NCBI GenBank assembly: GCA_044892525.1
Contig: CM097885.1
Location: 26,040,001-26,104,000 of the forward strand
Length of the DNA stretch: 64,000 bases
Direction: 5' to 3'
Source: Schmidtea polychroa
Taxonomy: Eukaryota
In this document: positions 1 to 61,605 of the stretch, piece by piece
Layout: every line of letters begins with the position of its first letter
Position numbering within the stretch: position 1 is the first letter of the stretch
The notes under the pieces: model-generated
Database searches by the model: none
What the model was told of the DNA's origin: nothing
Seen by the model: the letters and a program-made list of their open reading frames with translations, nothing else
Position numbers and translations under genes: made by a program

Positions 1-492
1 TTGAAAAAATATTTTGTATATCAAGGTAATAAAACTTGGATAAATGTTTTGCCAAAAATTATTTTCAGTTACAATCATTCACCACACAGAGGATTAAAAG
101 GACAAACACCTGCAGATTTTACTAAAAATCAAACAAAGTCAGAAAAAATCAATAAACCGAAATACAAGGTTGGTGATCATGTAAGAATTAGTAAAATCAA
201 TTCTTCACCATTCATCAAAAACTTTGATAATAATTGGAGTGATGAAGTATATCAAATTTTTAAAATCGATACAAAACAGAATCCTGTCATGTATGTGATA
301 GTTGATCATGAAAACAAACCAATCACTGGTAAATTCTATGAACAAGAACTCCAAGTAATTCCTGCTCCTACAATATTTAGAATTCAAAAGATTTTAAAAA
401 CCAAAAAAGATGGTAAATATAAACAATACTATGTTAAATGGCATGGATATGAAACTCCATCTTGGATATCTGAAAATCAATTGATTAAATAA
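1..492 (+). CDS. Retroviral-like integrase, C-terminal part with chromodomain (5' truncated by the window)
   Basis: YNHSPHRGL..TPA, KYKVGDHVRISK, NWSDEVYQI and GKFYEQELQ motifs of Polinton integrases, followed by the chromodomain-like KILKTK..YYVKWHGY..PSWI. Confidence 0.93.
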   Translation: MKKYFVYQGNKTWINVLPKIIFSYNHSPHRGLKGQTPADFTKNQTKSEKINKPKYKVGDHVRISKINSSPFIKNFDNNWSDEVYQIFKIDTKQNPVMYVIVDHENKPITGKFYEQELQVIPAPTIFRIQKILKTKKDGKYKQYYVKWHGYETPSWISENQLIK

Positions 493-497
493 ATATT

Positions 498-1523
498 ATG
501 AAAGATTTTTATATTATTTTACCTTCTAATAGTTGTCCTCTTATTTTCCCCGATAATGAAGCTAGTAAATTTAATGTCGAATTTCAAAATCCTATTTACT
601 TGGATGGTGAATGGGAAGTAGCTCTCATGGACTTTACCTTTGTGTATAATACTTTTCCTTATTACAGTAATTCATTGATACAATATGAAAAAGTAAAGAT
701 GGATGAAGAAATTAAATATTTTAGAATAAATAATTCAAATCGAACCTTTGAAGTAATAAATCCTAAAAATACTCCTGAAGTTGACATGTTCATTGAAAGA
801 TATGAGAATTTGGTTGTTGTTTGTCCACATGTTCCATTTAAAATAACGTTTCCAGATTTTGAACATGCTATTAAATTTGGATTAAAATCAGTATCGGTTA
901 TTAGTGATAGTGATCATTTGCGAATTAAATTACCAAAATTTACAGAAGATAAAACAATTGATCAATTTGGTATAATTATAAGTGTTGTTGAAAAAACAAA
1001 ATTTGAACATTATTTCGAAGATGAACTATACATCAATACTTTATCTGAAATACATGGTCAGTTAATGACAATTAATCCGTCTCCCTTTAAAGATTTAAAA
1101 ATACAAAATAATGAATTGGTTAAAATAAGTCTTGCTGATAACATTTCATCAATAACCTTTGATAAAAATTTAACAAAAACATTGGGATTAAAGAAACAAA
1201 CATTTACAGAGAAAGAAATTATTGGAACAAAAATTCCAAAGTTATTTAATCATCATCAACAAATGTTTATTTACTCAAATATTATCGAACCATTGACTGT
1301 TGGAGATGTATGAGTTCCGTTATTGAAATCTATTTGGATAAAAAAATATGAACAAGGAGAAATTGTGCAACTAGAAATGAAGAATCCAATGTATCTACCA
1401 ATTTCTAATTCTTCTATAAACAACATTGAAATCAATATACGAGATGATAGTGGAAAATTAATAAAATTTAGTAGAGATACAAAAACACACTTGACATTAC
1501 ATTTTCGTAAAATAAATGATTAA
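498..1523 (+). pseudogene. Minor capsid protein (penton) copy 1, interrupted by an in-frame TGA at 1311-1313
   Basis: FYIILPSNS..FPDN..F.V....I.LDGEWEVAL N-terminus and IEINIRDDSG..LTLHFR C-terminus. The frame continues directly after the TGA (VPLLKSIW), matching paralogue LVPLLKCIW. Confidence 0.88.
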
Positions 1524-2532
1524 AAAAGATTTTTATGTGAATTTACCTTCTAATAGTTGTCCTCAGACTCATCCAAATAATGAAGCTGGTAAATTTAATG
1601 TCGAATTTCAAAATCCTATTTACTTGGATGGTGAATGGGAAGTAGCTCTCATGGACTTTACCTTTGTGTATAATTATTTTCCTTTTTACAGTAATTCAAA
1701 TGTCAAATATAGTAAAAGTGTATTACATACAAGTTATGAATACTTTTACTTTAACCAAGAAAAAAATGAATATACAATCAGTCACGACTCTCCATTTTAT
1801 TTAATATATATTGATGGAAATACATTGAACATTAATTGTAAATATTTTCCTTTTAAAGTAGAATTCGATAGTATTAAAGAAGCGCAGAAATTGGGATTTT
1901 CAGAAAAAGAAATAACTTTTAAAAAAGCCTTGAACCAAATCACTATTCCTCCAAATAATCGAAAAATAAAGTTTGATACAATTCGACTAACTATACAATA
2001 TTATTACGATGTCGAGTATACAGATACATTCGAAGAAAATATCATTACAGATCTTTCACAAATAAATGATCAACTATCACTCTTTTATCCTCGTCCATTT
2101 AAATCTGTTGATATTCAAAAAGGAAAAATCGTTAAAATTGTAATGGATGATGATGTCAGTAAAGTTCAATTTAGTAAATTTTTAGCCAATAGTTTAGGAT
2201 TATTAGAAGAAGCATATACTGACAAACTTATTATTGGTTTTAAAGAACCTGAAGTATTACAACGCAATCAACAATTGATGATCTATACAAATATTATCGA
2301 ACCTATTATTGTTGGTGATACATTGGTCCCTCTTTTGAAATGTATTTGGGTGGAAAAACATAAAAAAGATGATTTAGTACAAATAATTGAAAAGAATCCA
2401 ATGTACTTACCTGTATCGTCTTCATATATAAACAATATAGAAATCAATATACGAGATGATAGTGGAAAATATATATTTGGAAAAGAAGATAAAACATACT
2501 TGACATTACATTTTCGTAAAATAAATGAGTAA
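1516..2532 (+). CDS. Minor capsid protein (penton) copy 2, intact
   Basis: Same terminal motifs as copy 1; uninterrupted 338-aa ORF whose ATG overlaps the copy 1 stop. Confidence 0.88.
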   Translation: MIKKDFYVNLPSNSCPQTHPNNEAGKFNVEFQNPIYLDGEWEVALMDFTFVYNYFPFYSNSNVKYSKSVLHTSYEYFYFNQEKNEYTISHDSPFYLIYIDGNTLNINCKYFPFKVEFDSIKEAQKLGFSEKEITFKKALNQITIPPNNRKIKFDTIRLTIQYYYDVEYTDTFEENIITDLSQINDQLSLFYPRPFKSVDIQKGKIVKIVMDDDVSKVQFSKFLANSLGLLEEAYTDKLIIGFKEPEVLQRNQQLMIYTNIIEPIIVGDTLVPLLKCIWVEKHKKDDLVQIIEKNPMYLPVSSSYINNIEINIRDDSGKYIFGKEDKTYLTLHFRKINE

Positions 2533-2923
2533 TCCTGACATAATACATTTTTATAGTAGTAACCAATCGGGTGGTGATTTACCATATTTTGTTGGTAAAC
2601 AATATGGAACCGGTTGGTTGAAGACAATAGGTAGATTTGCACTCCCAATTCTTAGACGAATAGGAAATTTTGGTATGAAAACAGCTAATGACGTAATAAA
2701 TAACAATGCAAATATCTTGCCTGCTTTAAAATCAAATGCAATTTCTGAAATTAAAGAATCATTACCAGCTGTGATGCAACATTTACCTGAAGTAATTAAT
2801 AAAGTATCCGATGTATTTAAAAATGATAAAGAACAAAAAGGCGGAATACTTAAACGCCGAAAAATTATGAAGAAACATATAAACAAAAGAATGAAAGGAT
2901 ATGGTACCATCTTTGAAAAATGA
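2525..2923 (+). CDS. Small conserved Polinton virion protein (pVI-like, putatively membrane-active)
   Basis: QSGG..LPYF.G.QYG.GW...IGRFALPILRRIG amphipathic motif, basic C-terminus, and position between penton and major capsid genes. Confidence 0.7.
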   Translation: MSNPDIIHFYSSNQSGGDLPYFVGKQYGTGWLKTIGRFALPILRRIGNFGMKTANDVINNNANILPALKSNAISEIKESLPAVMQHLPEVINKVSDVFKNDKEQKGGILKRRKIMKKHINKRMKGYGTIFEK

Positions 2924-4143
2924 TTAGTGCTAAATCAGAATTATGTCTTTTTGATAGACCTTCTCCCCAAGCAGTGATTGAACATGGAGCATTTGAAGAT
3001 GTATACCCAAGAAATTCTATTACAGATGCTGGTTCTTCTTCGATTCAATTTTACATAAATGGATCGCAGACTGAATATTTAGATTTGAATGATACTTTGT
3101 TATATATTCAATTGAAAGTTGTTAATAATTTAGGTGAGAATTTAGGCGAATCAGAAGTAATTCCAAATAATTTCTTCTTCCAAACCCTTTTTAAAGATGT
3201 TGAATTAATTTTTAATTCAATCAAAGTTGAAGGATCAAATGATAGATTTGCCCACAAAGCATTAATTGAAACACTTATAAATTATGACGGAGATACTAAA
3301 CGAACATCTTTAGGTGGAATGGGGTATACTAACAAAGATCTTACGAGAAAAACATGGATTGAAAAATCAAAATCCTTTTCTTTATGTTCCCCACTTCAAT
3401 TTGATTTCTTTGATCAACCTAAATATTTACTACCAGGTGTTAGTGTTCAAATTAAATTAACAAGATCAAATCCAACACTTAGTTTAACTTGTGCGAAAAT
3501 TGAACCGAAAATTTTATTATTAGACGCAAAATTAATGGTTAGAAGAGTTCGTGTTGAACCATCGGTTTTGGCAGGACATCAAATTGGTCTGTCTACCAAA
3601 AATGCAATTTATCCTTTAAGAAGCAAAGAAGTTGTTGATTTCTCATTACCTATTGGTTCTTCCTCTTTTTATAAAGAACAAATATTTGGAGATAGACGAT
3701 TACCTAATTTTATACTTGTTGCATTTCAATCTAGTAAAAGATTTAGTGGATCGTTTTCAGAATCATTTTCTTTATTTGATCACTTTAATGTCAAGTCCAT
3801 AACTTTAAGTAAAGGAAGTGATTATCGCGAAAAATATAGTCAAGATTTTGAGAATGATGATTATAGTACAAGTTATATGCAATCGATTATTAGAAATATG
3901 GGTTATCTAAATAAAAATATGAATTGTGGTATCACCATGTCTGATTTTAAGAGCAAGTATCCATTCTTTACATTCGTATTGGCACCAGATTTTGATCTTC
4001 ATCAAAGTCAGTTACCACAAAGTGGAAATTTGCGATTAGATATTAAATTCGCATCTTCACTTACTGAAGCTGTTTCTGTAATCGTATATGGAGTTTTTGA
4101 AAAAGAAATTCAAATTACATCTACTCGTACTGTTTTGGTATAA
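2920..4143 (+). CDS. Double jelly-roll major capsid protein (hexon/PY)
   Basis: KSELCLF..P..Q..I....F..VYP...I....IQF.I.G...EYLDL..T.LY N-terminus and G.LRLDIKF..L...V..IVYG C-terminus typical of Polinton MCP; 407 aa. Confidence 0.93.
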   Translation: MISAKSELCLFDRPSPQAVIEHGAFEDVYPRNSITDAGSSSIQFYINGSQTEYLDLNDTLLYIQLKVVNNLGENLGESEVIPNNFFFQTLFKDVELIFNSIKVEGSNDRFAHKALIETLINYDGDTKRTSLGGMGYTNKDLTRKTWIEKSKSFSLCSPLQFDFFDQPKYLLPGVSVQIKLTRSNPTLSLTCAKIEPKILLLDAKLMVRRVRVEPSVLAGHQIGLSTKNAIYPLRSKEVVDFSLPIGSSSFYKEQIFGDRRLPNFILVAFQSSKRFSGSFSESFSLFDHFNVKSITLSKGSDYREKYSQDFENDDYSTSYMQSIIRNMGYLNKNMNCGITMSDFKSKYPFFTFVLAPDFDLHQSQLPQSGNLRLDIKFASSLTEAVSVIVYGVFEKEIQITSTRTVLV

Positions 4144-4177
4144 TATAAACCAAATATCGAAAATCAATTAATCAAAT

Positions 4178-4556
4178 ATGAAGTAAGAATTAATTTAAAT
4201 TATTTAATTATTATTAATTTAGTTCTATTCAGATACATGTTATCGGAAGAAAATTACTAGGAAAAGAATTTCTAGGTGTTTTCCCATTAGACAAAATACC
4301 TTATTTAGATGTCAACAAAGCAATAATTGTAAATACTCAATCTGCTAATCTGAATGGTGAACATTGGCTTGCAGTATACGTGAAACCAGACAAAATATAT
4401 GCATTTGATCCAATGGGATTCTATTATCCACCTATATTAATCAATAAACTACAATCAATGTCAATGCCGATTGAATACAATCGAATACGTTACCAAAACC
4501 CTATAACAAAAACATGTGGACAACATTGTTTGGCTTGGTTAAAGTCAATGAAATAA
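4178..4556 (+). CDS. Adenain-like cysteine protease; two exons (4178-4182, 4223-4556), 40-nt intron 4183-4222; 112 aa
   Basis: The spliced product MNSIQIHVIGRKLLGKEFLGVFPLDKIP...NTQSANLNGEHWLAV...YAFDPMG...YQNPITKTCGQHCLAWL has the adenain H/D/Q/C catalytic residues. Unspliced, the frame has an upstream TAA and no N-terminal ATG. The intron is GTAAG...TTTAG. Confidence 0.9.
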
Positions 4557-4970
4557 ATTTTTATAATAAAAAGTTGTTTTCAATAAATTTTAGCTGATTA
4601 TTTCAATAAATTTTTAGTTGATTATTAATTCAATATAATTGATTATTAAAATTTAAATTTTAGTTGATTATTAAACTAAATCTTTAATTAAGTTAATTAT
4701 TATGTAAGGTATTAAATCCTTTAATTATTATGCAAGTTATTTAATCCTTTAATTATTATGTAAGTTATTTAATCTTTTAATTATTACGCATGGTATCAAA
4801 TTTAATCCTTTAATTATTACGTAATGTATTAAGTAGAAGAAGAAGTATATAAATGATTTGTTTTTAAAATTTGCTCATAATTTGCTAGTACCAAGGATTG
4901 TAAGAATTTTATTTTTTAATTATTAAAATTTAATTATTTTTTAGATAAAAAAGATTGAAACTAAAAAACT

Positions 4971-5117
4971 ATGAAAATGAACAAAAATTCTGAAATGAAT
5001 GAAACTATGAACAAAAATTCTGAAATGAATGAAACTATGAACAAAAATGTCAAATGTAAGTATTTTTATCAATTTTTTTATAAAATTTTATAAGATGAAA
5101 TTACTAATATTTTTTAA
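4971..5117 (+). CDS. Putative small spliced Polinton gene (about 35 aa, 30-nt internal repeat)
   Basis: TATATAAA at 4846, candidate 5'UTR intron 4900-4944 (GTAAG...TTAG), ATG 4971 and donor GTAAGT at 5056. An acceptor at 5094 gives MKMNKNSEMNETMNKNSEMNETMNKNVKYEITNIF. The 3' exon assignment is uncertain. Confidence 0.4.
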
Positions 5118-5229
5118 TGATTATTAATGATATTTTTATATAATTTTTTAATAAAATTTTATTTGATCTTAAGAGGAAATTCACTCATTTTTTATAATCT
5201 AATATTTTACTAATATTTTAAATAAAATT

Positions 5230-5640
5230 TTATAATGAAATAAGGGTAAATCCCTCGTAAAAATTTTTTTTTATATAATGATGAAATTATTAACATTTTT
5301 AAATAATATTTTATAATGAAATTATTATTAATGTTATTTTTTAATGATATTTATTTTGAAATAAGGGGAAATCCCTCGTAAAATTTTTTTATAATGATGA
5401 AATTATTAACATTTTTAAATAATATTTTATAATGAAATTATTATTAATGATATTTATTTTGAAATAAGGGGAAATCCCTCGCAAATTTTTTTTATAATGA
5501 TAATAATGTAGTCTACAGTGAGCACGTAGCTACATAATAGTCTGCAGTGAGCATGCAGTACTCTTTAATATAATAATGTAGTCTACAGTGAGCACGTAGC
5601 TACATAATAGTCTGCAGTGAGCATGCAGTACTCTTTAATA
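5230..5640. repeat. Polinton intergenic repeats: 3x GAAATAAGGG(G/T)AAATCCCTCG units and a perfect 70-bp tandem duplication (5501-5570, 5571-5640)
   Basis: Direct comparison of the copies. Confidence 0.9.
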
Positions 5641-5714
5641 ATAATCTGACCCTTATTAAATACTTATTAACTTTAAAATTTTTTTCAACAACATTTAAAA
5701 TAACACTTAAATAT

Positions 5715-6147
5715 TTATTCAAAAACATTTGTAATTTTCCAAATTGGTTTAATTATAACTCCATTTATCTTGACTCCTTGAATAAGTATTCGCACTTTTG
5801 ATTTTTTATCTTCGTCTAATTTACACCCTTTTTCACAATTGATAAATGTAAATTTTTCATTAAAAATCATTTCTTTATTAATTAATTTAAGAATTTCTCC
5901 AAGATTTTTTCTATCTTCTTCCCCAATATCTCCAATTTGAATATTGAATTGACATGTTTTTAAATTAACTGGTTCCTATAACAAATTAATATTAAATAAT
6001 TAAATAAAAAATTACCTTGAACGAATAAGTAATAGGATATTTCAAATAGTACATATTATATTGAAGGAATTGAATAGGAGGTTTACATACCATACCTATA
6101 ACTGATGTACTATTTTCTTCTAATAGGATACTATTTATAGTAGACAT
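5715..6147 (-). CDS. Uncharacterised Polinton protein, 130 aa; two exons (6147-6016, 5975-5715), 40-nt intron 6015-5976; possibly an OB-fold ssDNA-binding protein
   Basis: ATG at 6147, a 132-nt exon, a GTAATT...TATAG intron, then a 261-nt exon ending in TAA, open throughout. The C-terminus KVRILIQGVKINGVIIKPIWKITNV is beta-rich. Confidence 0.8.
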
Positions 6148-6202
6148 TTTTTGTTAAATTTATTTCATTAAATTATCATTTATAGCAAATAATTAATTTT
6201 GA

Positions 6203-9200
6203 TTGGATGCATACATGCAAAATTATAAGAAAATTTTAATAGTATTATTTTTATCAAATGTTTTAGCCAAATTTTTAAATGTATATATTTTAGGTATACT
6301 TTATCCAAATTATTGTTCGTCGAAAGAACATAATAATTGCCATTCTATAATGGAGAATTATTATTCTAAAAAATACTATAATAAAACTTTTTTTATATGC
6401 CCCATATGTAAGATTAGCGAGCCCTTAACATATAGCGTTTTTTATAATAAGCATAAACAACATTTAGATAGGTTCAATTCTAAAAAAGATGTTATTTTTA
6501 AACGTCCTTCAACTATTGAAATAAATACTACTAATAAAAAAATTAAATTAAATACATTTGTTGAATCCCAGGTCGGATTAGTTGATGAATCCAATGATGG
6601 ATTGCCTTTTGCTGAATCCAATGTTGGATTGTCTTTTGCTGAATCCAATGATGGATTGTCTTTTGCTGAATCCGATGATGGATTGTCTTTTGCTGAATCC
6701 AATGATGGATTGCCTTTTGTTGAATCCCAGGTCGGATTAGTTGATGAATCCTATAATGAATTTGATAATCTTTCACTCGACTCTTGGGATGTAGGCGAAC
6801 CCAATAATGAATTTGATAATCTTTCACTCGACTCTTGGGATGTAGGCGAACCCAATAATGAATTTGATAATCTTTCGCTCGACTCTTGGGATGTAGGCGA
6901 ACCCAATAATGAATTTGATAATCTTTCACTCGACTCTTCGACTACTAATGTACAAATAGGAGGTAATGTACCCATAGTACAAAAAGATTTAAGGGGTACA
7001 CATCAAATTTTAAGTCTAAATACAAGTAACTTGAATATAAAGGAAATAATATTTCCAGAACAATTAATTATAAAATTACGAGATATTATTAACGAATTAG
7101 GCTCCGTCAAAATTCAATTCGGAATAACAATCGAATTTGAAAAAGACGGGGAAATAAAGGTTAATAATATTTCGAATTACGCAAAACCTTTAACTGCCTC
7201 ATTTTTTGACGAAGGCATTAGAGAACTAAACGAGAAAATAAGTAATATCACAGAGTTAGGAAGTAGCTGGATCATAAAAAAAATAACTGAAATTCACTTC
7301 ACCATAACAAAGATAAGTAGGCTAAGTAGATTAAGTGGTAGGAGTTTCATTGAACTACCTACTTGTCTAAAAAATAAAAAATGCTTAATTAATGTAAAAA
7401 ACACCGACGATTCGTGTTTTTTATATAGCATTTTAGCTATTTTAAAATATGATGAAGTTATTAAACAATATAGAAATAGAACATCCAGTTATAATTTATC
7501 TGAGTTAATATATAATCCATTAGACTTACCAATGAAATTAAAAGATATTAGAAAATTCGAGGCCAAAAATCCTGGTTTAATAATTAATGTTTTTTCTTAT
7601 GACAATAACAAACAATTAATAGATAATTACGTTTTAAAACACCCCCATTTAGACATTATACATCGTTCCAAAGTTTTAAATGGAACAGTAATTAATTTAC
7701 TATTATTAAATAAAGGGAACAATTTCCATTACATTGCTATAAGCAATTTAAATAGGTTACTGAATTGCCACATAAACACTAGTTGTCCTACACGCATACA
7801 ATCAATATGGTGTCATCGTTGTTTGAATGGTTTTAAAAATAGAAACGCACTAGAAAAACATGAAATATTATGCAAACGCAATCAATTAGGAACTACTCTT
7901 TATACTTTCCCTCAAAATAAATTCTTACAGTTTACTGACTGGTCGAAAACAGTAACTCCTCCTTTCGTAGTTTATGCCGATTTTGAGGCTATTTTACCTT
8001 GTGATAATGTTCATTTTCAGCGACACATGCCAATATCTGCTGGTCTTTTACTAGTAAATAACTTTGACGGATCTAAATCCTATCAACAGTTTATAGGTTT
8101 AGATTGCGTCGAGAGTTTTTTAAGTGCTATAGAGGATATAGCATTAAATAAGGTTCTTCCTTTTTATTATAAAATGGGTAGGAAACCAATGATTAAATTA
8201 ACTAAAAATGAGCAACAACAATTCATTAATTCAACGGTTTGTTATCTTTGTTTGAAATCTATCGTGGATCCTGTTAGAGATCACGATCATTTTACGGGCA
8301 AATACTTGGGTGCAGCTTGTAGCACATGTAACGTAAATAGAAAAATAAATAAAATTTTGCCTATCGTATTTCACAACTTGAAGGGATACGATATGCATCA
8401 TATACTTAAATATGGATTAAATAAATTTAAAAATTGGAATTTAGGGTGCATCCCAATAACTACGGAAAAATTTATATCTTTGATTGCTCATTTAGGCAAA
8501 ATTAGCATAAGATTCATTGATTCATATCAATTTGTCAATGATTCTTTGGCTAAAGCAGTCAAAACTTTGAATTCTTTGCCTTTTACTAATTCTGCTTTTT
8601 CTGGCACCATAGTAGGTGAAAAAGGAATCTTCCCTTATAATTTCGCCACTTCTTTAGATGTTCTACAAACTACGTATGAATTACCACCAATCTGGGAGGG
8701 TGTCACTGAGCTTGAGTATGAAAAAGCTCAGGAGATTTGGGTAGAATCTAATTGCAGAACTTTATTAGATTATATGATGATCTACCTAAAACTTGATTGT
8801 TTTCTTTTGGCTGATTTCTTTCATCAGTTTAGGTTGAAATCAATTGCTCACAATAGATTAGAACCTTTGAATTATTTCGGAATTCCAGGCATGTCTTGGT
8901 CTTCTGCATTAATGTCTTTAAATGAACCAATTGAACTCATAACTGAAAACGAAATGTTTAGCTTTTATGAGGGTGGAATAAGAGGCGGTCTTACTTTTGT
9001 GAATAAGCATTACGTAAAAACCGACGAGAACACCGAGTTACTTTATATAGATATTAATAATCTTTATGGGTGGGCTTTAAGTCAATCATTACCTTGTGGC
9101 GAATTTTGTTGGGTTCTTGATGGATTTGATGGAAATACTGGATGAATGTAGGAATTTAAATCTTGAATCTTTGTCTTATGGATACACACTTGAAGTTGAT

Positions 9201-10463
9201 CTTGTAATTCCTTCTGAGCTTCATGATAAGTTGGATGATTTCCCTGTAGCTGCTGAAAAAATGAAACCTGCTGGGTCTAAGGTTGAAAAATTATTATTAA
9301 CTCATCTTCCAAAATCTAATTATGTTATTCATTGGAGATTATTAAAATTATATTTAGAACTTGGTGTTAAAGTAACACGTGTAAATAGAGGTGTAAGATT
9401 TAAGCAATCACCAATTTTTAAAAAATATATAGATACAAATACCGAATTAAGATCAAAAAGCGTAAATAACTTAGATAAAAATTATTATAAATTGCTAAAT
9501 AACAGTTTATACGGCAAAACAGTTGAAAATTTAAAGAGAAGAATGAATCTTCGTCTTTGTACAACTGCCGGTAAATTAGTTAAATATTCGTCAAAACCGA
9601 CTTTTAAAAAATCTATTAAAATAGCTGATAATTTAATTGCAACACTTTTGAATTCAGATTCTATATGTTTAGATAGACCGAGTTACATTGGTCAATCTGT
9701 ACTTGATCTATCTAAACTTAGAATGTATGAATTGCAATATAAGGATCTGGAATCATTTCGCAATGAGTTTAATTGTAAAATTAATATCGTTGCTGGTGAT
9801 ACAGATTCTTTTTTCCTCGAAGTCATTAACTGCAAACTTGAGGTTCTTTTACCTGCAATGATTCGAGATAATTTATTAGATACTTCCAATTACAATAGTT
9901 GTCATTCCTTATATAGTAAGAACCTTGATTCAGTCATTGGAAAGTTCAAAGACGAGAATAAAGGTCTTAAATATAAGGAGTGGGTTTTTCTTAGACCTAA
10001 ATGTTATAGCTTGTTGGGTGATGAGGAAACAAAAAAGGCTAAAGGTGTAACATTGAAAGGTAGTGACATAAAACATCAGTCATACCTAGATTGTTATAAC
10101 ACTAACCAGATTTTTTCGGTTCCTCAGACTAAAATAACAAGCAAAAATCATCAAATTTTTACAATTAAAAACACAAAAATAGCACTAACAAACAAAGATG
10201 ACAAAAGGGTTTGGGTGGGGAAAAATGCTAGTCTTGCATATGGGCATGTAAGATTAAGTGAATTAAATATTGGAGAAAATGTTGGAGAAATTGTTGCAGA
10301 AAATGTTTCAGAAAATGATGGAGAAGATGTTTCAGAAAATGATGGAGAAAATGATGGAGAAGATGAGGAAGAATTAAATGAAGATTTTGGAGAAGATGAG
10401 GAAGAATTTAATGAAGAAGATGACATCGATATCGATGACGTTATTTTGTCCGATGAGGACTAA
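6203..10463 (+). CDS. polB: Protein-primed family B DNA polymerase (pPolB), split by a +1 frameshift near 9113-9145
   Basis: ExoI VVYADFEAIL; endonuclease VII-like CYLC..VRDHDHFTGKYLGAACSTCN; FHNLKGYD; FIDSYQF; KGIFPY; motif A YIDINNLYGWALSQ.LP in ORF1. ORF2 has motif B YKLLNNSLYGKT, motif C GDTDS, RPKCY and KAKGV. Confidence 0.95.
6581..6940 (+). repeat. In-frame coding tandem repeats in the pPolB N-terminus: 27-nt (ESNDGLSFA) x5 and 51-nt (NNEFDNLSLDSWDVGEP) x3+
   Basis: Visible directly in the DNA and the translation. Confidence 0.95.
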
Positions 10464-10529
10464 TTTTATTGAATAAATTTTATATCTTTACATTTGTTAA
10501 TTGTTTGTGTTTTATGTGTCTAGTTCATT

Positions 10530-10548
10530 TTTATGTATTTGGTCGATA

Positions 10549-10625
<77 letters not shown>

Positions 10626-10626
10626 T
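10530..10626. repeat. (ATT)n microsatellite
   Basis: Long ATT run after the polB stop. Confidence 0.95.
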
Positions 10627-10654
10627 TTCGTTAAAATTTTCATTTGACTTTGAA

Positions 10655-12111
10655 AAATATTTCATAAAAATTTTCATTAAAAGTTATCTTAAAAATTTCC
10701 ATCTAAAATTACCTAAAAAAAATATTTCATAAAAATTTCCATTAAAAATTACTTAAAAAAATATTTCATAAAAATTTCCATTAAAAATTACTTAAAAAAA
10801 TATTTCATAAAAATTTCCATTAAAAAATTTCAATTCTCAAACACCTTCAACTTTTTGTTAATAAATTTTAAAATCTTACTTTAATTTACTTATTACATTA
10901 CTTTAATTTACTTATTTAAAAATTATTACTTTAATTTACTTATTTAAAAATTATTACTTATTTAAAATTTTTTACCATTGATTACTTAATTTTAAATTTA
11001 GACCTTAATTAACTTTAATTTAATTTTTTAGAACCTTAATTTACTTTAATTTAATTTTTAGAACCATTATTTACTGTAATTGAAAAATTTGAGCCATAAT
11101 TAACTTTAATTTAATTTTTAGAACCATTATTTACTTTAATTGAAAAATCTGGACCATAATTTACTGTAATTTAATATTTTAGAACCATAATTTACTTTAA
11201 TTTAATTTTTAGAACCATTATTTACTTTAATTGAAAAATTTGGACCATAATTTACTGTAATTTAATATTTTAGAACCATAATTTACTTTAATTTAATTTT
11301 TAGAACCATAATTACCTTATTTGAAAAATTTGAGCCATAATTAACTTTAATTTAATTTTTAGAACCATTATTTACTTTAATTGAAAAATTTGAACCGTAA
11401 TTTACTTTAATTGAAAAATTTACCACGTTTTTTAGTGTAGACCACCTATTTCTCAGGACCAAGGAGACTCACCTCACTATAGCGTGATAAATCCTTGGCT
11501 TTTTTATTGATAGTAGGATTTTTGTATAGAAAAAAATTTTTCGTATTGAAAATCCCAGGACCAAGGAGACTCACCTCACTATAGTCTGAAAAATCCTTGG
11601 CTTTTTTAGTGGTAGTCGGATTTTTGTATTGAAAAAAAATTTTTGTATTGAAAATCCCAGGACCATCGAGACCCCCTCACTATAGTGTGAATAATCCTTG
11701 GCTTTTTTAGTGGTAGTCGGATTTTTGTATTGAAAAAAATTTTTTGTATTGAAAATCCCAGGACCATCGAGACCCCCTCACTATAGTGTGAATAATCCTT
11801 GGCTTTTTTAGTGGTAGTCGGATTTTTGTATAGAAAAAATTTTTTGTATTGAAAATCCCAGGACCATCGAGACCCCCTCACTATAGTGTGAATAATCCTT
11901 GACTTTTTTATTGATAGTCGGATTTTTGTATAGAAATTCCCAGGACCATCAAGACCCTCTCACTATAGTGTGATAAAAAAAAATTTGGACCAAAAATCCC
12001 TGAAAGCAAAAAATGAGTTGGGAACAATTGCGTAATAAAAATTTGGGAACAAACCCCCCCCCCCCCCGGGGGGGGGGGGTAATTGTTCCCGTAGGCCACT
12101 ATCTACCTACT
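10655..12111. repeat. Polinton right terminal/subterminal region (probable TIR): 39-bp AT repeats, degenerate AT repeats, about 101-bp tandem units (11453-11975) and a C14G12 hairpin
   Basis: Units start at about 11453, 11555, 11657, 11758, 11858 and 11939. The same motifs occur in inverted form next to the second terminus at 62634. The inner boundary is estimated. Confidence 0.75.
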
Positions 12112-33310: not shown

Positions 33311-33903
33311 TCAAAATCTTCGTATATTATTTTGCCTATTGATGTTTTGTCTTGGTTCTTCAATGATTGAAACTTCGACAAAATCTCCTATCTAGTCAAG
33401 GATTAACAAATTACATTAAATTAACATAATAAATTTACCTGGAATTTTTTTGAGGACAAAGTAACAAATGAGTCATCAGGAGAACGAAAAGAACCATCAA
33501 TATTTCGTTTATTTCTACCAACAATTACTTTACCGATTTCTCTTCGTCTATAATCGCTTGAATGTTTTTCAGGATATACAATTGCAAAGCATAATGTTAG
33601 ACCGGGTTTTCTCGCTTCAATACACGTGTCACGAATTTCACTTGACAACTCGCGTAAAGACGCGTCAATCCAAGTGTTAATTTCAATTTTATGTAACTCA
33701 TTTCTGGATCTTTTATATGCTGTAAGTGGATTCCAACGTCCACTCATACTGATAAAGCAATTTATGAGAATAGGACAAGTTAATCTTCTGTCAATTTCAG
33801 TTACTATTGGGTTAGTTACTTCAACCACAGACTGTAATTGATTAGATTCAATCGCAGGTTCCACTTTAGGCAAAACCACAACAGCAGATGATAAAGAAAT
33901 CAT
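33311..33903 (-). CDS. SAP18: Histone deacetylase complex subunit SAP18 homologue; exons 33903-33439 and 33391-33311
   Basis: IDRRLTCPILI, INTWIDASLRELS..I.....EARKPG...FAIVYP..YRRREIG and DDS..TL.SKKFQ|IGDFVEVSI; 47-nt GT-AG intron. The start codon is tentative. Confidence 0.9.
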
Positions 33904-34559
33904 ATAATTAGTATATAAAATTCCAACTTTATAATACAGATTCAATATTGCTAAAAAATATATTTGAACAGATCTAAGGTTTCGAAATTTTAAACAAAAT
34001 ATTATTATACAATAATTGAAATTGAGATTACTGATTTTATTAAGTTTAAATTTTGAAGTTTTATTCTAACAGTAAATTTCAGCTCAATACTTACGAAAAT
34101 TTAATTTTATTTTTTAATTCAAACCATGTTTTGTCAAAAATTTGAATTAAAATGAGTTTATAGCCAATATTTTTAATAGGATAATAAAAAATGTTTAGTT
34201 CAAAATTAAATAAAAATTTTGATAAAATTCTCTACTCTTTTGTCTGCAATAAGTACTAAAATTAATATAATAGATTAGAATTGTGATTAGGATTGTGTAT
34301 AATAATTGGAAAACGTAATTAATTTTTGGAATTTTTTGGGAAACATTAAAAAAGAGTAGAGTAACAATAGAGTAACAAAATTTTTATTGAATCTCTGAAA
34401 ATCAATTAGAGCAAAATAATACCACTTAAAATCTAAACTATAGTTGCGCAATTATAATTAAAAACTATAAGATTCGTGAAATTTTGTAGCATAAACACCT
34501 AAAGAGATGAAAATTTAACAATAATTCTTGGAATATTCAATGAAATTCATACAAAATAG

Positions 34560-40735: not shown

Positions 40736-40894
40736 TATTTCAAAAATACAATACAATTCTTCCCAAAATAATGGAAATCAATGGATAATATAAATGCAAA
40801 GATTTCATTTGTATGGCCATCAAATTATCCCACATTTCCAAATAACCTTGCTGGCCGAAGAAAATCGACTACTGATTACTATTTTTAATTCTTA

Positions 40895-41626
40895 ATGGGA
40901 TGTTGCTGTTCTATCGATAGAGAAAAGCGAGTAAAAACCTTCAAGTATTTTGTGAAATCAAATCGAAGAATTGGAAATTCAACGAAAAAGACAAGTTTAC
41001 GAAATAGTCAGACTTATGATCCTTCCCCTAGGAAACATGAAAAGAAATTATTAATCGAGAATTATGTAAAACAACACACCCCTAAATCTTGTGAAAGTAT
41101 CACTTATAGCTTTGATTCACTGGAAAATGTAAAAACCTTTCCGTACCAAGGTGACATTGAACACGTCATTCCACCGATTTATCCAAAGGGTATATTTGAA
41201 ATTAAAACTGGAAAAGGTCTTTGTTACGTTTGTAATATTCATGTTAAAGATGATCTAAGAACGACGAGAGATTATCTAGATGTTAATAAAATCGACTTCC
41301 AAGTCGTGACGCCCTACATAAGAACTTCGATTTTTCAGTCGGAACATATTAAGAATTGGAAAGATTCGCAAAAACACCCAAGTAGACGTTTGTATCAAAA
41401 GTTTAAATTTAATTTCGGAGTCACTTTAAAAATTAGCCAGCATTTCGTCAGCAGAAAGGGTGTTATCATGCGATGCTACTCGTTTATTGGGAAGAATATC
41501 AACAATGTGTTAAAGGCAACTAATTGGTGTTTATTGCACTTGAAAGAGTTTCAACACGTTTCCTGCGAAACCGGATGCAATTCAATTTTAGATAAGGAAG
41601 AATTACTTTCTGGAATTTGTTATTGA
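40895..41626 (+). CDS. Intronless orphan ORF, 243 aa, with an N-terminal MGCCCS lipidation motif
   Basis: A 732-nt open frame in AT-rich DNA with protein-like composition; no family recognised. Confidence 0.6.
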   Translation: MGCCCSIDREKRVKTFKYFVKSNRRIGNSTKKTSLRNSQTYDPSPRKHEKKLLIENYVKQHTPKSCESITYSFDSLENVKTFPYQGDIEHVIPPIYPKGIFEIKTGKGLCYVCNIHVKDDLRTTRDYLDVNKIDFQVVTPYIRTSIFQSEHIKNWKDSQKHPSRRLYQKFKFNFGVTLKISQHFVSRKGVIMRCYSFIGKNINNVLKATNWCLLHLKEFQHVSCETGCNSILDKEELLSGICY

Positions 41627-50875: not shown

Positions 50876-59942
<9,067 letters not shown>

Positions 59943-60426: not shown

Positions 60427-61446
60427 TGTTATTGTTGAGGATACTTAAATAATAATTTACAAATAAATAAATAAAATTACCTAGAGGAAGGTCGTCATAA
60501 CAAACGGGACGATCTAGGGGAAATCAGAAAAGAAAACGGAAGCAAAAAGAAATGAGAAATGAGATGGGGGAGGAAACAAAAGAAATTAAACAAGAAAATA
60601 AAAACCAAAGTCAGTATTAATTAATTAGTACAAAAAGGAAAAGGAATTTCGAAAGTGGAAAAATAGAAAAACAACAATACTCTTATCTCGACAGCTTGTC
60701 AGTGATAACAGAATTGCTGAGAGAAGGCGGTTAAACAAAAAAGGGAAAATAGCTTGACAGCCGTCAGAGAAAAAAACACTTGATTATCTTTAGTGCCACA
60801 ATATAAGCAAGCTTTAAAAAGAGAAACTATAAGAGACAAAAGAAAACAAAATTAGAGACAAAGAGTGACGCGAAATTGAGACGAAACATGACAGAAAAAT
60901 TGAGACAAAAAGTGAAGCGAAATTAAGACAATTTGGGACGAATGTGACAATTGTGAGACGATTTGAGAGACAAACGTGGGAGAAAATTATTGGGAAAATT
61001 TAGACAACGTTGGACGAAACGTTGTTGGATAAACGATTTGTGAAAAATAATTGTAAAGAAAACGATTGTGGAGAATAATTATTGAAGAAGAGTTGAAGAA
61101 AAGAATTAGTTGAAAAATAAAACGAAAAGAAGTTATTTGAGTATTTGAGTAAATTTGTGAAGAAGATCAAAGAAAACAACGAGCTCAAAGTCCCAGTTGA
61201 TAAACCAATCAGTAATTAGTGATCTTTTAACCCGTGTTATACGCAAGTGCTATTCCTCACCGAGTGTTGTAATAAGCATTGTATAGTCACCAAGCAGAGT
61301 GTTGTATTGATTGTCAGTGTAAAGAGAAAGTTTATTTGTGATTATCAATAAAGATTTCTATTGTCAAGTGTTATTTGTGGATCGTATAAAGACTCGTTTG
61401 GAGTCATAGTAAGATTTAAATTTATCACCAACTCTATAACCCAACA
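60427..61446 (-). repeat. About 1-kb solo-LTR-like repeat, copy 2 (inverted relative to copy 1)
   Basis: TGTTATTG...CCCAACA termini; no TSD found. Confidence 0.7.
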
Positions 61447-61605
61447 TTATTAAAAAAATCAATAAATTATATTATAAGATAAATACAAACTCACCTATGT
61501 GCTAAAAATGCATTAGCAGTTACACCTGCTAATTTATTTTAGAATTCCAGAAAGGGTAGAACAATTATTGACTTTACCTTTCTTGAGTCAGTTGATCATT
61601 ATACT

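What the first reader, a model, noticed from the sequence alone, without database searches (positions are those of the whole stretch)
5715..6147. Second hidden spliced viral gene, head-to-head with polB, also with an exactly 40-nt intron
Seen: minus-strand ATG 6147, a 44-codon exon, a phase-0 GTAATT...TATAG intron (6015-5976) and an 87-codon exon give a 130-aa protein. Its ATG is only about 55-200 nt from the possible polB starts, implying a compact bidirectional promoter. Both confident viral introns are 40 nt, shorter than the 45-51 nt short host introns measured here. Inference: the beta-rich C-terminus (KVRILIQGVKINGVIIKPIWKITNV) and pairing with pPolB suggest an OB-fold ssDNA-binding replication partner. 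This is a guess, not a recognised match.
Basis: partly seen in the sequence, partly recalled or inferred. Interest (0 to 1): 0.75.

Follow-up and report, generated by a model that had tools for sequence, protein, structure and literature searches.

The report
Maverick's spliced T7-type DNA-coating gene
A virus-like jumping gene (a Maverick) with at least 150 copies in this genome carries a small two-exon gene whose intron-free relatives are predicted to fold like phage T7's single-stranded-DNA-binding protein, so it likely coats DNA during the element's own copying, and it likely sits backwards inside an intron of the polymerase gene.

Summary
Exons 6147-6016 and 5975-5715 flank a 40-nt GT-AG intron in a ~16.7-kb Maverick with at least 150 copies. 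Sister families carry intronless homologs. A profile built only from them ranks the two exons first and second among 1950 window ORFs, abutting at the junction. An AlphaFold model of one intronless homolog (pLDDT 83) best matches T7-type ssDNA-binding proteins (ASFV CP312R, DUF2815, Enc34 SSB, T7 gp2.5; Z 6.3-7.1) and giant-virus proteins, so the SSB guess is supported. The acidic tail is absent. "Exactly 40 nt" fails: copies range 39-48 nt, and other viral introns are 44-46 nt. "Head-to-head with polB" is probably wrong. polB has a conserved acceptor at 6293 and an in-frame donor at 5056, so the gene likely lies antisense inside a 1238-nt polB intron, with its own CCAAT+TATA promoter. Splicing and DNA binding are inferred, not observed. 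My paper searches found no T7-type SSB in a Maverick. An earlier scan note reports an RPA-like OB protein in another genome's Polinton.

The parts
6016..6147 (-). Exon 1 of the SSB-like gene (44 codons; carries the first long barrel strand of the homolog model)
   Evidence: profile positions 22-46; length unchanged in 28 of 29 copies
5976..6015 (-). Phase-0 GT-AG intron, 40 nt here and 39-48 nt in sister copies; absent from all homolog families found, so likely gained in this family
5715..5975 (-). Exon 2 (86 codons + stop; long helix and C-terminal strands); AATAAA overlaps the stop at 5719-5714
   Evidence: profile 47-135, E 2e-11
6179..6206 (-). Likely promoter of the SSB-like gene: CCAAT box (6206-6202) and TATAAA (6184-6179)
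   Evidence: same spacing (CCAAT/ATTGG at -61 to -67, TATA at -41 to -45) in 6 of 8 homolog loci
4971..5055 (+). Likely first coding exon of polB (ATG + 28 codons of tandem repeats, phase-1 donor)
   Evidence: in-frame, stop-free exon before the donor in 32 of 34 family copies
4900..4944 (+). Likely 45-nt 5'-UTR intron of the polB unit (44-46 nt in copies)
5056..6293 (+). Likely 1238-nt phase-1 polB intron holding the SSB-like gene in antisense (932-1531 nt in copies; 205 nt and without the gene in a sister family)
6294..10463 (+). Main polB exon (protein-primed family B polymerase with an Endonuclease VII-like domain); this copy is broken by a frameshift between 9081 and 9145
   Evidence: PF03175, PF02945
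4183..4556 (+). Adenovirus-type protease: 40-nt intron 4183-4222 and its main exon
   Evidence: (PF00770)
1..4143 (+). Integrase 3' part with chromodomain (1-492), two paralogous ORFs (489-1313, 1516-2532), a 132-aa ORF (2525-2923) and a 408-aa ORF (2917-4143). The labels minor capsid, membrane-lytic protein and major capsid are inferred from order and recall, not from a call
10769..12111 (.). Right terminal inverted repeat; its partner is at L031:5434-7046, giving an element of about 16.7 kb

Best explanation
This two-exon gene of a high-copy Maverick encodes a ~130-aa protein predicted to be a single T7 gp2.5-type OB fold that likely coats the displaced single strand during the element's protein-primed DNA copying, and it likely lies antisense inside polB's first coding intron with its own CCAAT+TATA promoter. 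Shown: the exons, the intron, intronless homologs in several sister families, colinearity across the junction, and promoter spacing. Predicted: the fold, modelled on homolog L055. Inferred: splicing, ssDNA binding, the role in replication, the long polB intron, and intron gain in this family (the other families found have none).
For: Colinearity of both exons with 8 intronless homologs. Intron length changes in 14 of 29 copies with GT/AG kept in 29 of 29, against one exon-1 length change. The protein is kept at 21-34% identity across families whose polymerases are 27-60% identical. AlphaFold model pLDDT 83, pTM 0.74, with a 14-residue helix (67-80) after the early strands; a long helix after strand 2 is the T7-type hallmark in PMC5686142 (passages). 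The top four of 48,161 PDB chains are ASFV CP312R (Z 7.1, rmsd 3.8, 124 aligned), DUF2815 4klk (6.8, 3.0, 99), Enc34 SSB (6.7, 3.2, 99) and T7 gp2.5 (6.3, 3.2, 104); next 5.2, and most lower rows are OB folds. BFVD gives 22 hits at E<=1e-3; all 18 named ones are giant-virus proteins, best E 7e-6. For nesting: polB conservation starts at the acceptor in three families. In families B and A' no ATG lies between the last stop and the conserved stretch. A phase-1 GTAAGT donor with an open ATG exon is present in 32 of 34 family copies. Family A' has three short 5' exons, all phase 1, in 3 of 4 arms that matched (9 tested), ending in a 205-nt intron without this gene. All three families make Cys at that junction.
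Against: The fold comes from a homolog (26% and 32% identical to the two exons) with a 10-row alignment, and 2 of 5 models failed (pLDDT 41). Z 6-7 is within the range the tool calls common for unrelated arrangements, and Foldseek against PDB gave no E<=1e-3. No acidic C-terminal tail in any of the 9 C-termini aligned. The Trp at the start of the penultimate strand in the homologs is missing in the window protein. The steadier neighbour is a TBP-like gene (18 of 21 homolog loci), not polB. Family A' polB arms lack the gene. All 34 family-A copies have some in-frame ATG just upstream of the polB acceptor (frame open 30 codons in 19, 5 codons in 15), so an unspliced polB start is possible. The family-B donor was found in only 4 of 6 copies. 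Intron length variants lie in a T run and some may be assembly errors. The copies are related, so counts are not independent.
Confidence: 0.7

Rival explanations
1. Same gene and fold, but the protein serves transcription of the element, for example as an ssDNA- or RNA-binding partner of the element's TBP-like protein, or serves annealing and recombination, rather than replication.
For: It sits next to the TBP-like gene in 18 of 21 homolog loci (PF00352 E 5.5e-16). It lacks the acidic tail that T7 gp2.5 uses to contact polymerase and helicase (PMC5686142 passages). The promoter has a TATA box.
Against: The four best structural matches all belong to the T7-type SSB group. In the window's family the TBP-like gene is about 8 kb away and this gene lies by polB.
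Confidence: 0.17
2. One reading: polB starts unspliced at 6200-6350 and shares a compact bidirectional promoter with this gene; the upstream exon at 4971-5055 is a separate small gene or noise.
For: In-frame ATGs lie upstream of the acceptor in 34 of 34 family copies. A CCAAT box sits in the interval; that such boxes are common in bidirectional promoters is recalled. In family B the homolog is head-to-head with a Bcl-2-like gene, 155 nt apart.
Against: The stretch upstream of the acceptor changes frame between copies and is not conserved, while conservation starts at the acceptor in three families. Matching phase-1 donors exist upstream in all three. The TATA box points at the small gene only.
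Confidence: 0.2
3. The 40-nt stretch is a frameshifting insertion that inactivated the gene in this family (a pseudogene), not an intron.
For: All homolog families found lack it. A 40-nt insertion breaks the frame.
Against: Canonical GT-AG ends lie exactly at the colinear point. Both exons stay intact across copies while the insert varies in length. The element has other short introns of the same make. At least 150 near-identical copies point to recent activity.
Confidence: 0.04

Closest known systems
T7 gp2.5-type SSBs (T7 gp2.5 1je5, Enc34 ORF6 5odk, DUF2815 4klk)
   Same: Predicted OB barrel with a long helix after the early strands; Z 6.3-6.8 over 99-104 residues
   Different: 7-8% identity; smaller (130-157 aa); no acidic tail; encoded by a protein-primed element rather than an RNA-primed phage
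T7-like SSBs of Nucleocytoviricota and mriyaviruses (ASFV CP312R 8hw5; BFVD hits such as mimivirus R506, EsV-1-76, iridovirus P31K)
   Same: Best structural matches overall. T7-like SSBs are reported for Phycodnaviridae, Mimiviridae, Iridoviridae, Marseilleviridae and gamadviruses (PMC11253617 and PMC4889955 passages). That these particular BFVD entries are those SSBs is inferred
   Different: Mostly 180-400 aa; no sequence-level match found; in large viruses, not in an integrated Maverick
SSBs of protein-primed replicons (PRD1 P12, Bam35/phi29 SSB, adenovirus DBP)
   Same: Same proposed job: protect the displaced strand in protein-primed replication (PMC11886824 passages)
   Different: These are described as non-OB, OB-like without a closed barrel, or highly divergent OB (PMC4889955, PMC8276246, PMC11886824 passages); none is among the 50 rows, which does not exclude them
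Mavericks/Polintons (adintoviruses)
   Same: pPolB, integrase with chromodomain, A32-type ATPase, adenovirus-type protease, protein-X motif, long TIRs
   Different: Intact vertebrate Mavericks are reported as intronless (PMC8097293 passages); this family has several introns, an SSB-like gene and a TBP-like gene, and a sister family has a Bcl-2-like gene

Membership tests
T7-type SSB | OB-fold barrel structurally closest to gp2.5/DUF2815 | tested here: met
   Model of homolog L055: top four VIA rows are all of this group, Z 6.3-7.1, next 5.2. Predicted, and Z is under 8
T7-type SSB | Long helix immediately after strand 2 capping the barrel | tested here: met
   Helix 67-80 follows strands 51-55 and 60-64; the strand numbering is my reading of the DSSP order
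T7-type SSB | Long acidic C-terminal tail (defined for the phage members) | tested here: not met
   3-15 residues after the last conserved Trp, not acidic, in 9 of 9 C-termini. It works like a T7-type SSB core but is not filed as a full member
T7-type SSB | Aromatic residue at the start of strand 4 stacking on bases | tested here: inconclusive
   Trp in 8 of 8 intronless homologs at the start of strand 113-125, absent in the window protein; no residue-level superposition was available
T7-type SSB | Preferential binding of ssDNA | not testable with these tools
   Needs a binding assay
T7-type SSB | Sequence match to DUF2815/DUF2738-type profiles | tested here: inconclusive
   No significant Pfam, PHROGs or PDB-sequence hit; too divergent to decide
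Maverick/Polinton | pPolB, integrase, packaging ATPase and protease | tested here: met
   PF03175, PF00770, PF04665 and a chromodomain; the integrase core is labelled from recall
Maverick/Polinton | Long terminal inverted repeats | tested here: met
   window 10769-12111 against L031 5434-7046, 82-95% identity
Maverick/Polinton | 6-bp target-site duplication and jelly-roll capsid folds | not tested
   Exact termini were not located; the capsid ORFs were not folded
Spliceosomal (U2) intron | GT-AG ends whose removal restores colinearity with intronless homologs | tested here: met
Spliceosomal (U2) intron | Junction seen in RNA | tested here: inconclusive
   No run on record as RNA was available

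The most novel reading that the evidence does not exclude
These Mavericks run a nucleocytovirus-like mini-module: a tailless T7-type SSB, their own TBP-like factor with TATA promoters, and in one family a Bcl-2. They pair a T7-type OB-fold SSB with a protein-primed polymerase, supplying the unknown strand-protecting factor of animal Polintons. In one family the SSB gene gained an intron and moved antisense into polB's first intron, as host-like gene architecture built up in a still-active endogenous virus.
Probability: 0.45. Interest if true: 0.8.

Novelty: new variant of a known kind. Interest (0 to 1): 0.66.

Why it matters
How Mavericks protect the strand displaced by their polymerase is not addressed in the Maverick papers I searched (0 hits for SSB terms in PMC11161782, PMC10748475, PMC8097293 and two 2026 preprints). 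A survey states that SSBs of protein-primed viruses are unrelated to OB-fold proteins (PMC4889955). A small, intronless, easily expressed T7-type candidate makes this testable, and it links animal Mavericks to the SSB family of giant viruses. It also shows that ORF-based annotation misses real Maverick genes and mis-starts polB where introns have been gained.

Tried and rejected
RNA evidence. No RNA holder was listed. Contigs of two runs guessed to be RNA cross the intron acceptor unspliced (X1 5599-6011, X2 5730-5988). No joint was listed for this intron, the long polB intron or the protease intron. One X1 contig starts exactly at 6294. These runs may be DNA, so nothing is concluded.

An intronless or short-gap copy of this family in the genome: pattern search, 0 matches.

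Homologs outside this genome. Three protein searches found none (near lengths only). Phage tblastn none. Viral contigs 0 of 7 candidates. Metagenomes 1 of 44, a 24-residue match rejected without follow-up. One alignment scan could not build patterns. The representative search and the Atlas were unavailable. Distribution beyond this host is therefore open.

Pfam, PHROGs and PDB sequence searches: nothing significant. Folding exon 2 alone without an alignment failed (pLDDT 36). The HIV gp120 rows (TM 0.12-0.16) were rejected as artefacts. PRD1 P12, phi29 SSB and adenovirus DBP are not among the rows, which does not exclude them.

The ATPase query was taken from the wrong strand, so its printed orientation is reversed; it was not used. 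Host introns were not measured (searches gave no usable multi-exon gene). The 2012 paper on NCLDV SSBs is not held; I rely on papers citing it. No supplements were read, and gene tables there may already list such a gene. The host was guessed as a planarian from recall for one paper search (listing only); no call tested it.

Full report
Setting. Window 1-12111 is the right-hand part of a Maverick/Polinton; the left part lies in the preceding 10 kb (L031). Pfam finds a type-B polymerase, an adenovirus-type protease, a chromodomain, an A32-type ATPase, a protein-X motif and a TBP domain. Inverted repeats at window 10769-12111 and L031 5434-7046 bound about 16.7 kb. Exon 2 has 150 of 150 scored matches at 98-100% identity in the 781-Mb genome, from 2524 candidates, so the family expanded recently. 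This copy's polB is split by a frameshift between 9081 and 9145.

Observation. The coordinates hold. The intron is AT-rich (7.5% GC) and the unspliced reading stops within it. Of 30 sister loci, 29 were parsed: intron lengths 40 (15), 47 (6), 42 (5), 43 (2), 48 (1), all GT-AG, with exon 1 unchanged in length in 28. The 30th reads 39 nt. These loci were picked for an intact exon 2, are related, and vary in a T run, so this is support rather than proof. It does remove 'exactly 40'. Other introns are 44-46 nt (5' UTR; 26 loci plus the window), 44 and 46 nt (family A'), and 40 nt (protease, 4 of 4 matched).

The decisive comparison. A polymerase search gave 91 matches, of which I fetched 20. Six held a diverged family B (polB 57-58% identical) with an exon-2 match at 34-35%. 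There the homolog is a single 136-codon ORF. Searching with it gave 150 matches, from 100% down to 33% identity; I fetched 20. Twelve hold long single-ORF homologs and the rest are broken by stops. Eight hand-picked intronless homologs aligned with the two exons as separate rows put exon 1's last residue and exon 2's first in adjacent columns. A profile from those eight alone ranks exon 2 and the exon-1 ORF first and second among 1950 window ORFs, at model positions 47-135 and 22-46; no scored shuffle reached either score. The promoter agrees: CCAAT at -59 and TATAAA at -37 in the window, and -61 to -67 and -41 to -45 in 6 of 8 homolog loci. The gene is real, and the intron is specific to this family among those found. 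A search made with an intronless query favours intronless hits, so gain is likely but not shown.

Fold. AlphaFold2 on homolog L055 with the 10-row alignment gave pLDDT 83 and pTM 0.74; three of five models were confident. Full alignment to 48,161 PDB chains ranks ASFV CP312R, a DUF2815 protein, Enc34 SSB and T7 gp2.5 first to fourth (Z 7.1-6.3, rmsd 3.0-3.8, 99-124 residues), then 5.2. Foldseek against PDB found Enc34 SSB at probability 0.99 but E 0.025, among artefact rows. Against BFVD, 22 hits had E<=1e-3, and all 18 named ones are giant-virus proteins. CP312R is described as having an ssDNA-binding site (PMC9963768 passages). The long helix after the early strands fits the T7-type hallmark (PMC5686142 passages). 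Against this: the Z values are middling, the acidic tail is absent, one candidate stacking Trp is lost in the window protein, and exon 2 folded alone gave nothing.

Layout. Protein conservation of polB across families A, A' and B begins right after an AG ending at 6293. Upstream, the sequence is unconserved, with stops in A' and B. A phase-1 GTAAGT donor at 5056, preceded by a stop-free ATG exon whose repeats vary from 18 to about 90 codons, is present in 32 of 34 family-A copies, 932-1531 nt from the acceptor. Family B has such a donor about 1.42 kb upstream in 4 of 6 copies. Family A' has three short exons, all phase 1, before a 205-nt intron that lacks the gene (in frame in 3 of 4 arms matched, 9 tested). 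Each donor yields Cys at the junction, ahead of a conserved Cys/His cluster. The gene therefore likely lies antisense inside polB's intron. Counter-evidence: all 34 A copies have an in-frame ATG shortly before the acceptor. In other families the gene's position varies; it is next to the TBP-like gene in 18 of 21 loci and pairs with polymerases as distant as 27%.

Mechanism. Shown: gene structure, homology and promoter motifs. Predicted: a T7-type OB barrel. Inferred: pPolB copies the excised linear element by strand displacement (PMC4889955 and PMC11886824 passages), and this protein binds the displaced strand, probably without tail-mediated contact to the polymerase. Confidence is about 0.95 for the spliced gene, 0.85 for the fold, 0.7 for the replication role and 0.75 for nesting.

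Known context. T7-like SSBs are reported in phages, four nucleocytovirus families and gamadviruses. SSBs of protein-primed viruses are described as non-OB or highly divergent OB. Intact vertebrate Mavericks are reported as intronless. Introners in dinoflagellate Maverick-like elements are a precedent for introns (PMC11957031 passages). A PLV figure legend lists a DUF2738/5871 gene (10.1101/2022.07.28.501842, one passage); that this is the giant-virus SSB family is my recall, and it would be a precedent in PLVs. Seven paper searches (listings) and term look-ups in 14 papers (passages only, no whole text, no supplements) showed no T7-type SSB in a Maverick.

Verdict. A real spliced gene, a likely tailless T7-type SSB of a Maverick, probably nested in polB's intron. 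New variant of a known kind; interest 0.66.

Noticed in passing
L032:6275-6733 (-); weaker matches in L036, L058, L060, L061, L064, L066, L067, L071: A Bcl-2 family gene (PF00452, E 1.3e-7, over the cut-off) in sister Maverick families, head-to-head with the SSB-like gene in family B (155 nt apart); a likely anti-apoptotic cargo
   Followed up: partly
L031:7587-8111 (-) and 18 of 21 homolog loci: A TBP-like gene (PF00352, E 5.5e-16) in these Maverick families; it may act on the element's TATA promoters. A TBP-like gene appears in a figure legend of PMC8502044
   Followed up: partly
L031:7190-7567 (-); homolog L032:7931-8257 (+): A conserved 108-125-aa Cys-containing ORF that follows the TBP-like gene; no Pfam match
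   Followed up: no
L040, L042, L047, L049, L051: Palindromic arrangements with two polB arms pointing outward around a centre of a few kb; those examined lack the SSB-like gene. Possibly replication by-products or non-autonomous forms
   Followed up: partly
window 489-1313 and 1516-2532: Tandem duplication of the likely minor capsid gene (first 180 nt 91% identical); the sister-family loci that cover this region show one copy
   Followed up: no
window 6555-6938, 10253-10417 and 4971-5055: In-frame tandem repeats in polB (27-nt, 51-nt and 12-nt units) and in its likely first exon; the exon repeat varies in length and sequence between copies
   Followed up: partly
L039:2612-2647 (approximate): The protease intron seems to sit at the same position in a diverged family, about 36 nt by eye in a degraded copy
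   Followed up: no
L054:6326 onward (+): A sister element with a very different pPolB (27% identity, zinc-finger-like start) but the same core genes and SSB-like gene, suggesting polymerase exchange
   Followed up: no
run X1 at window 4222 and 4256-4347: One contig joins 195 unrelated letters to the protease acceptor, and another replaces 90 nt of the protease exon; unexplained
   Followed up: no
window 33424-34065 (-): A host SAP18 gene (PF06487, E 7.8e-20) in one open frame
   Followed up: no
window 40889-41623 (+): A 245-codon open frame with no Pfam match
   Followed up: no
window 51591-52568 and 60430-61455: A long inverted repeat (83-93% complementary) about 8-9 kb apart, probably another DNA transposon
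   Followed up: no
L031:2388-4338 (+): A broken hAT-like transposase just outside the Maverick's left repeat (label from recall)
   Followed up: no
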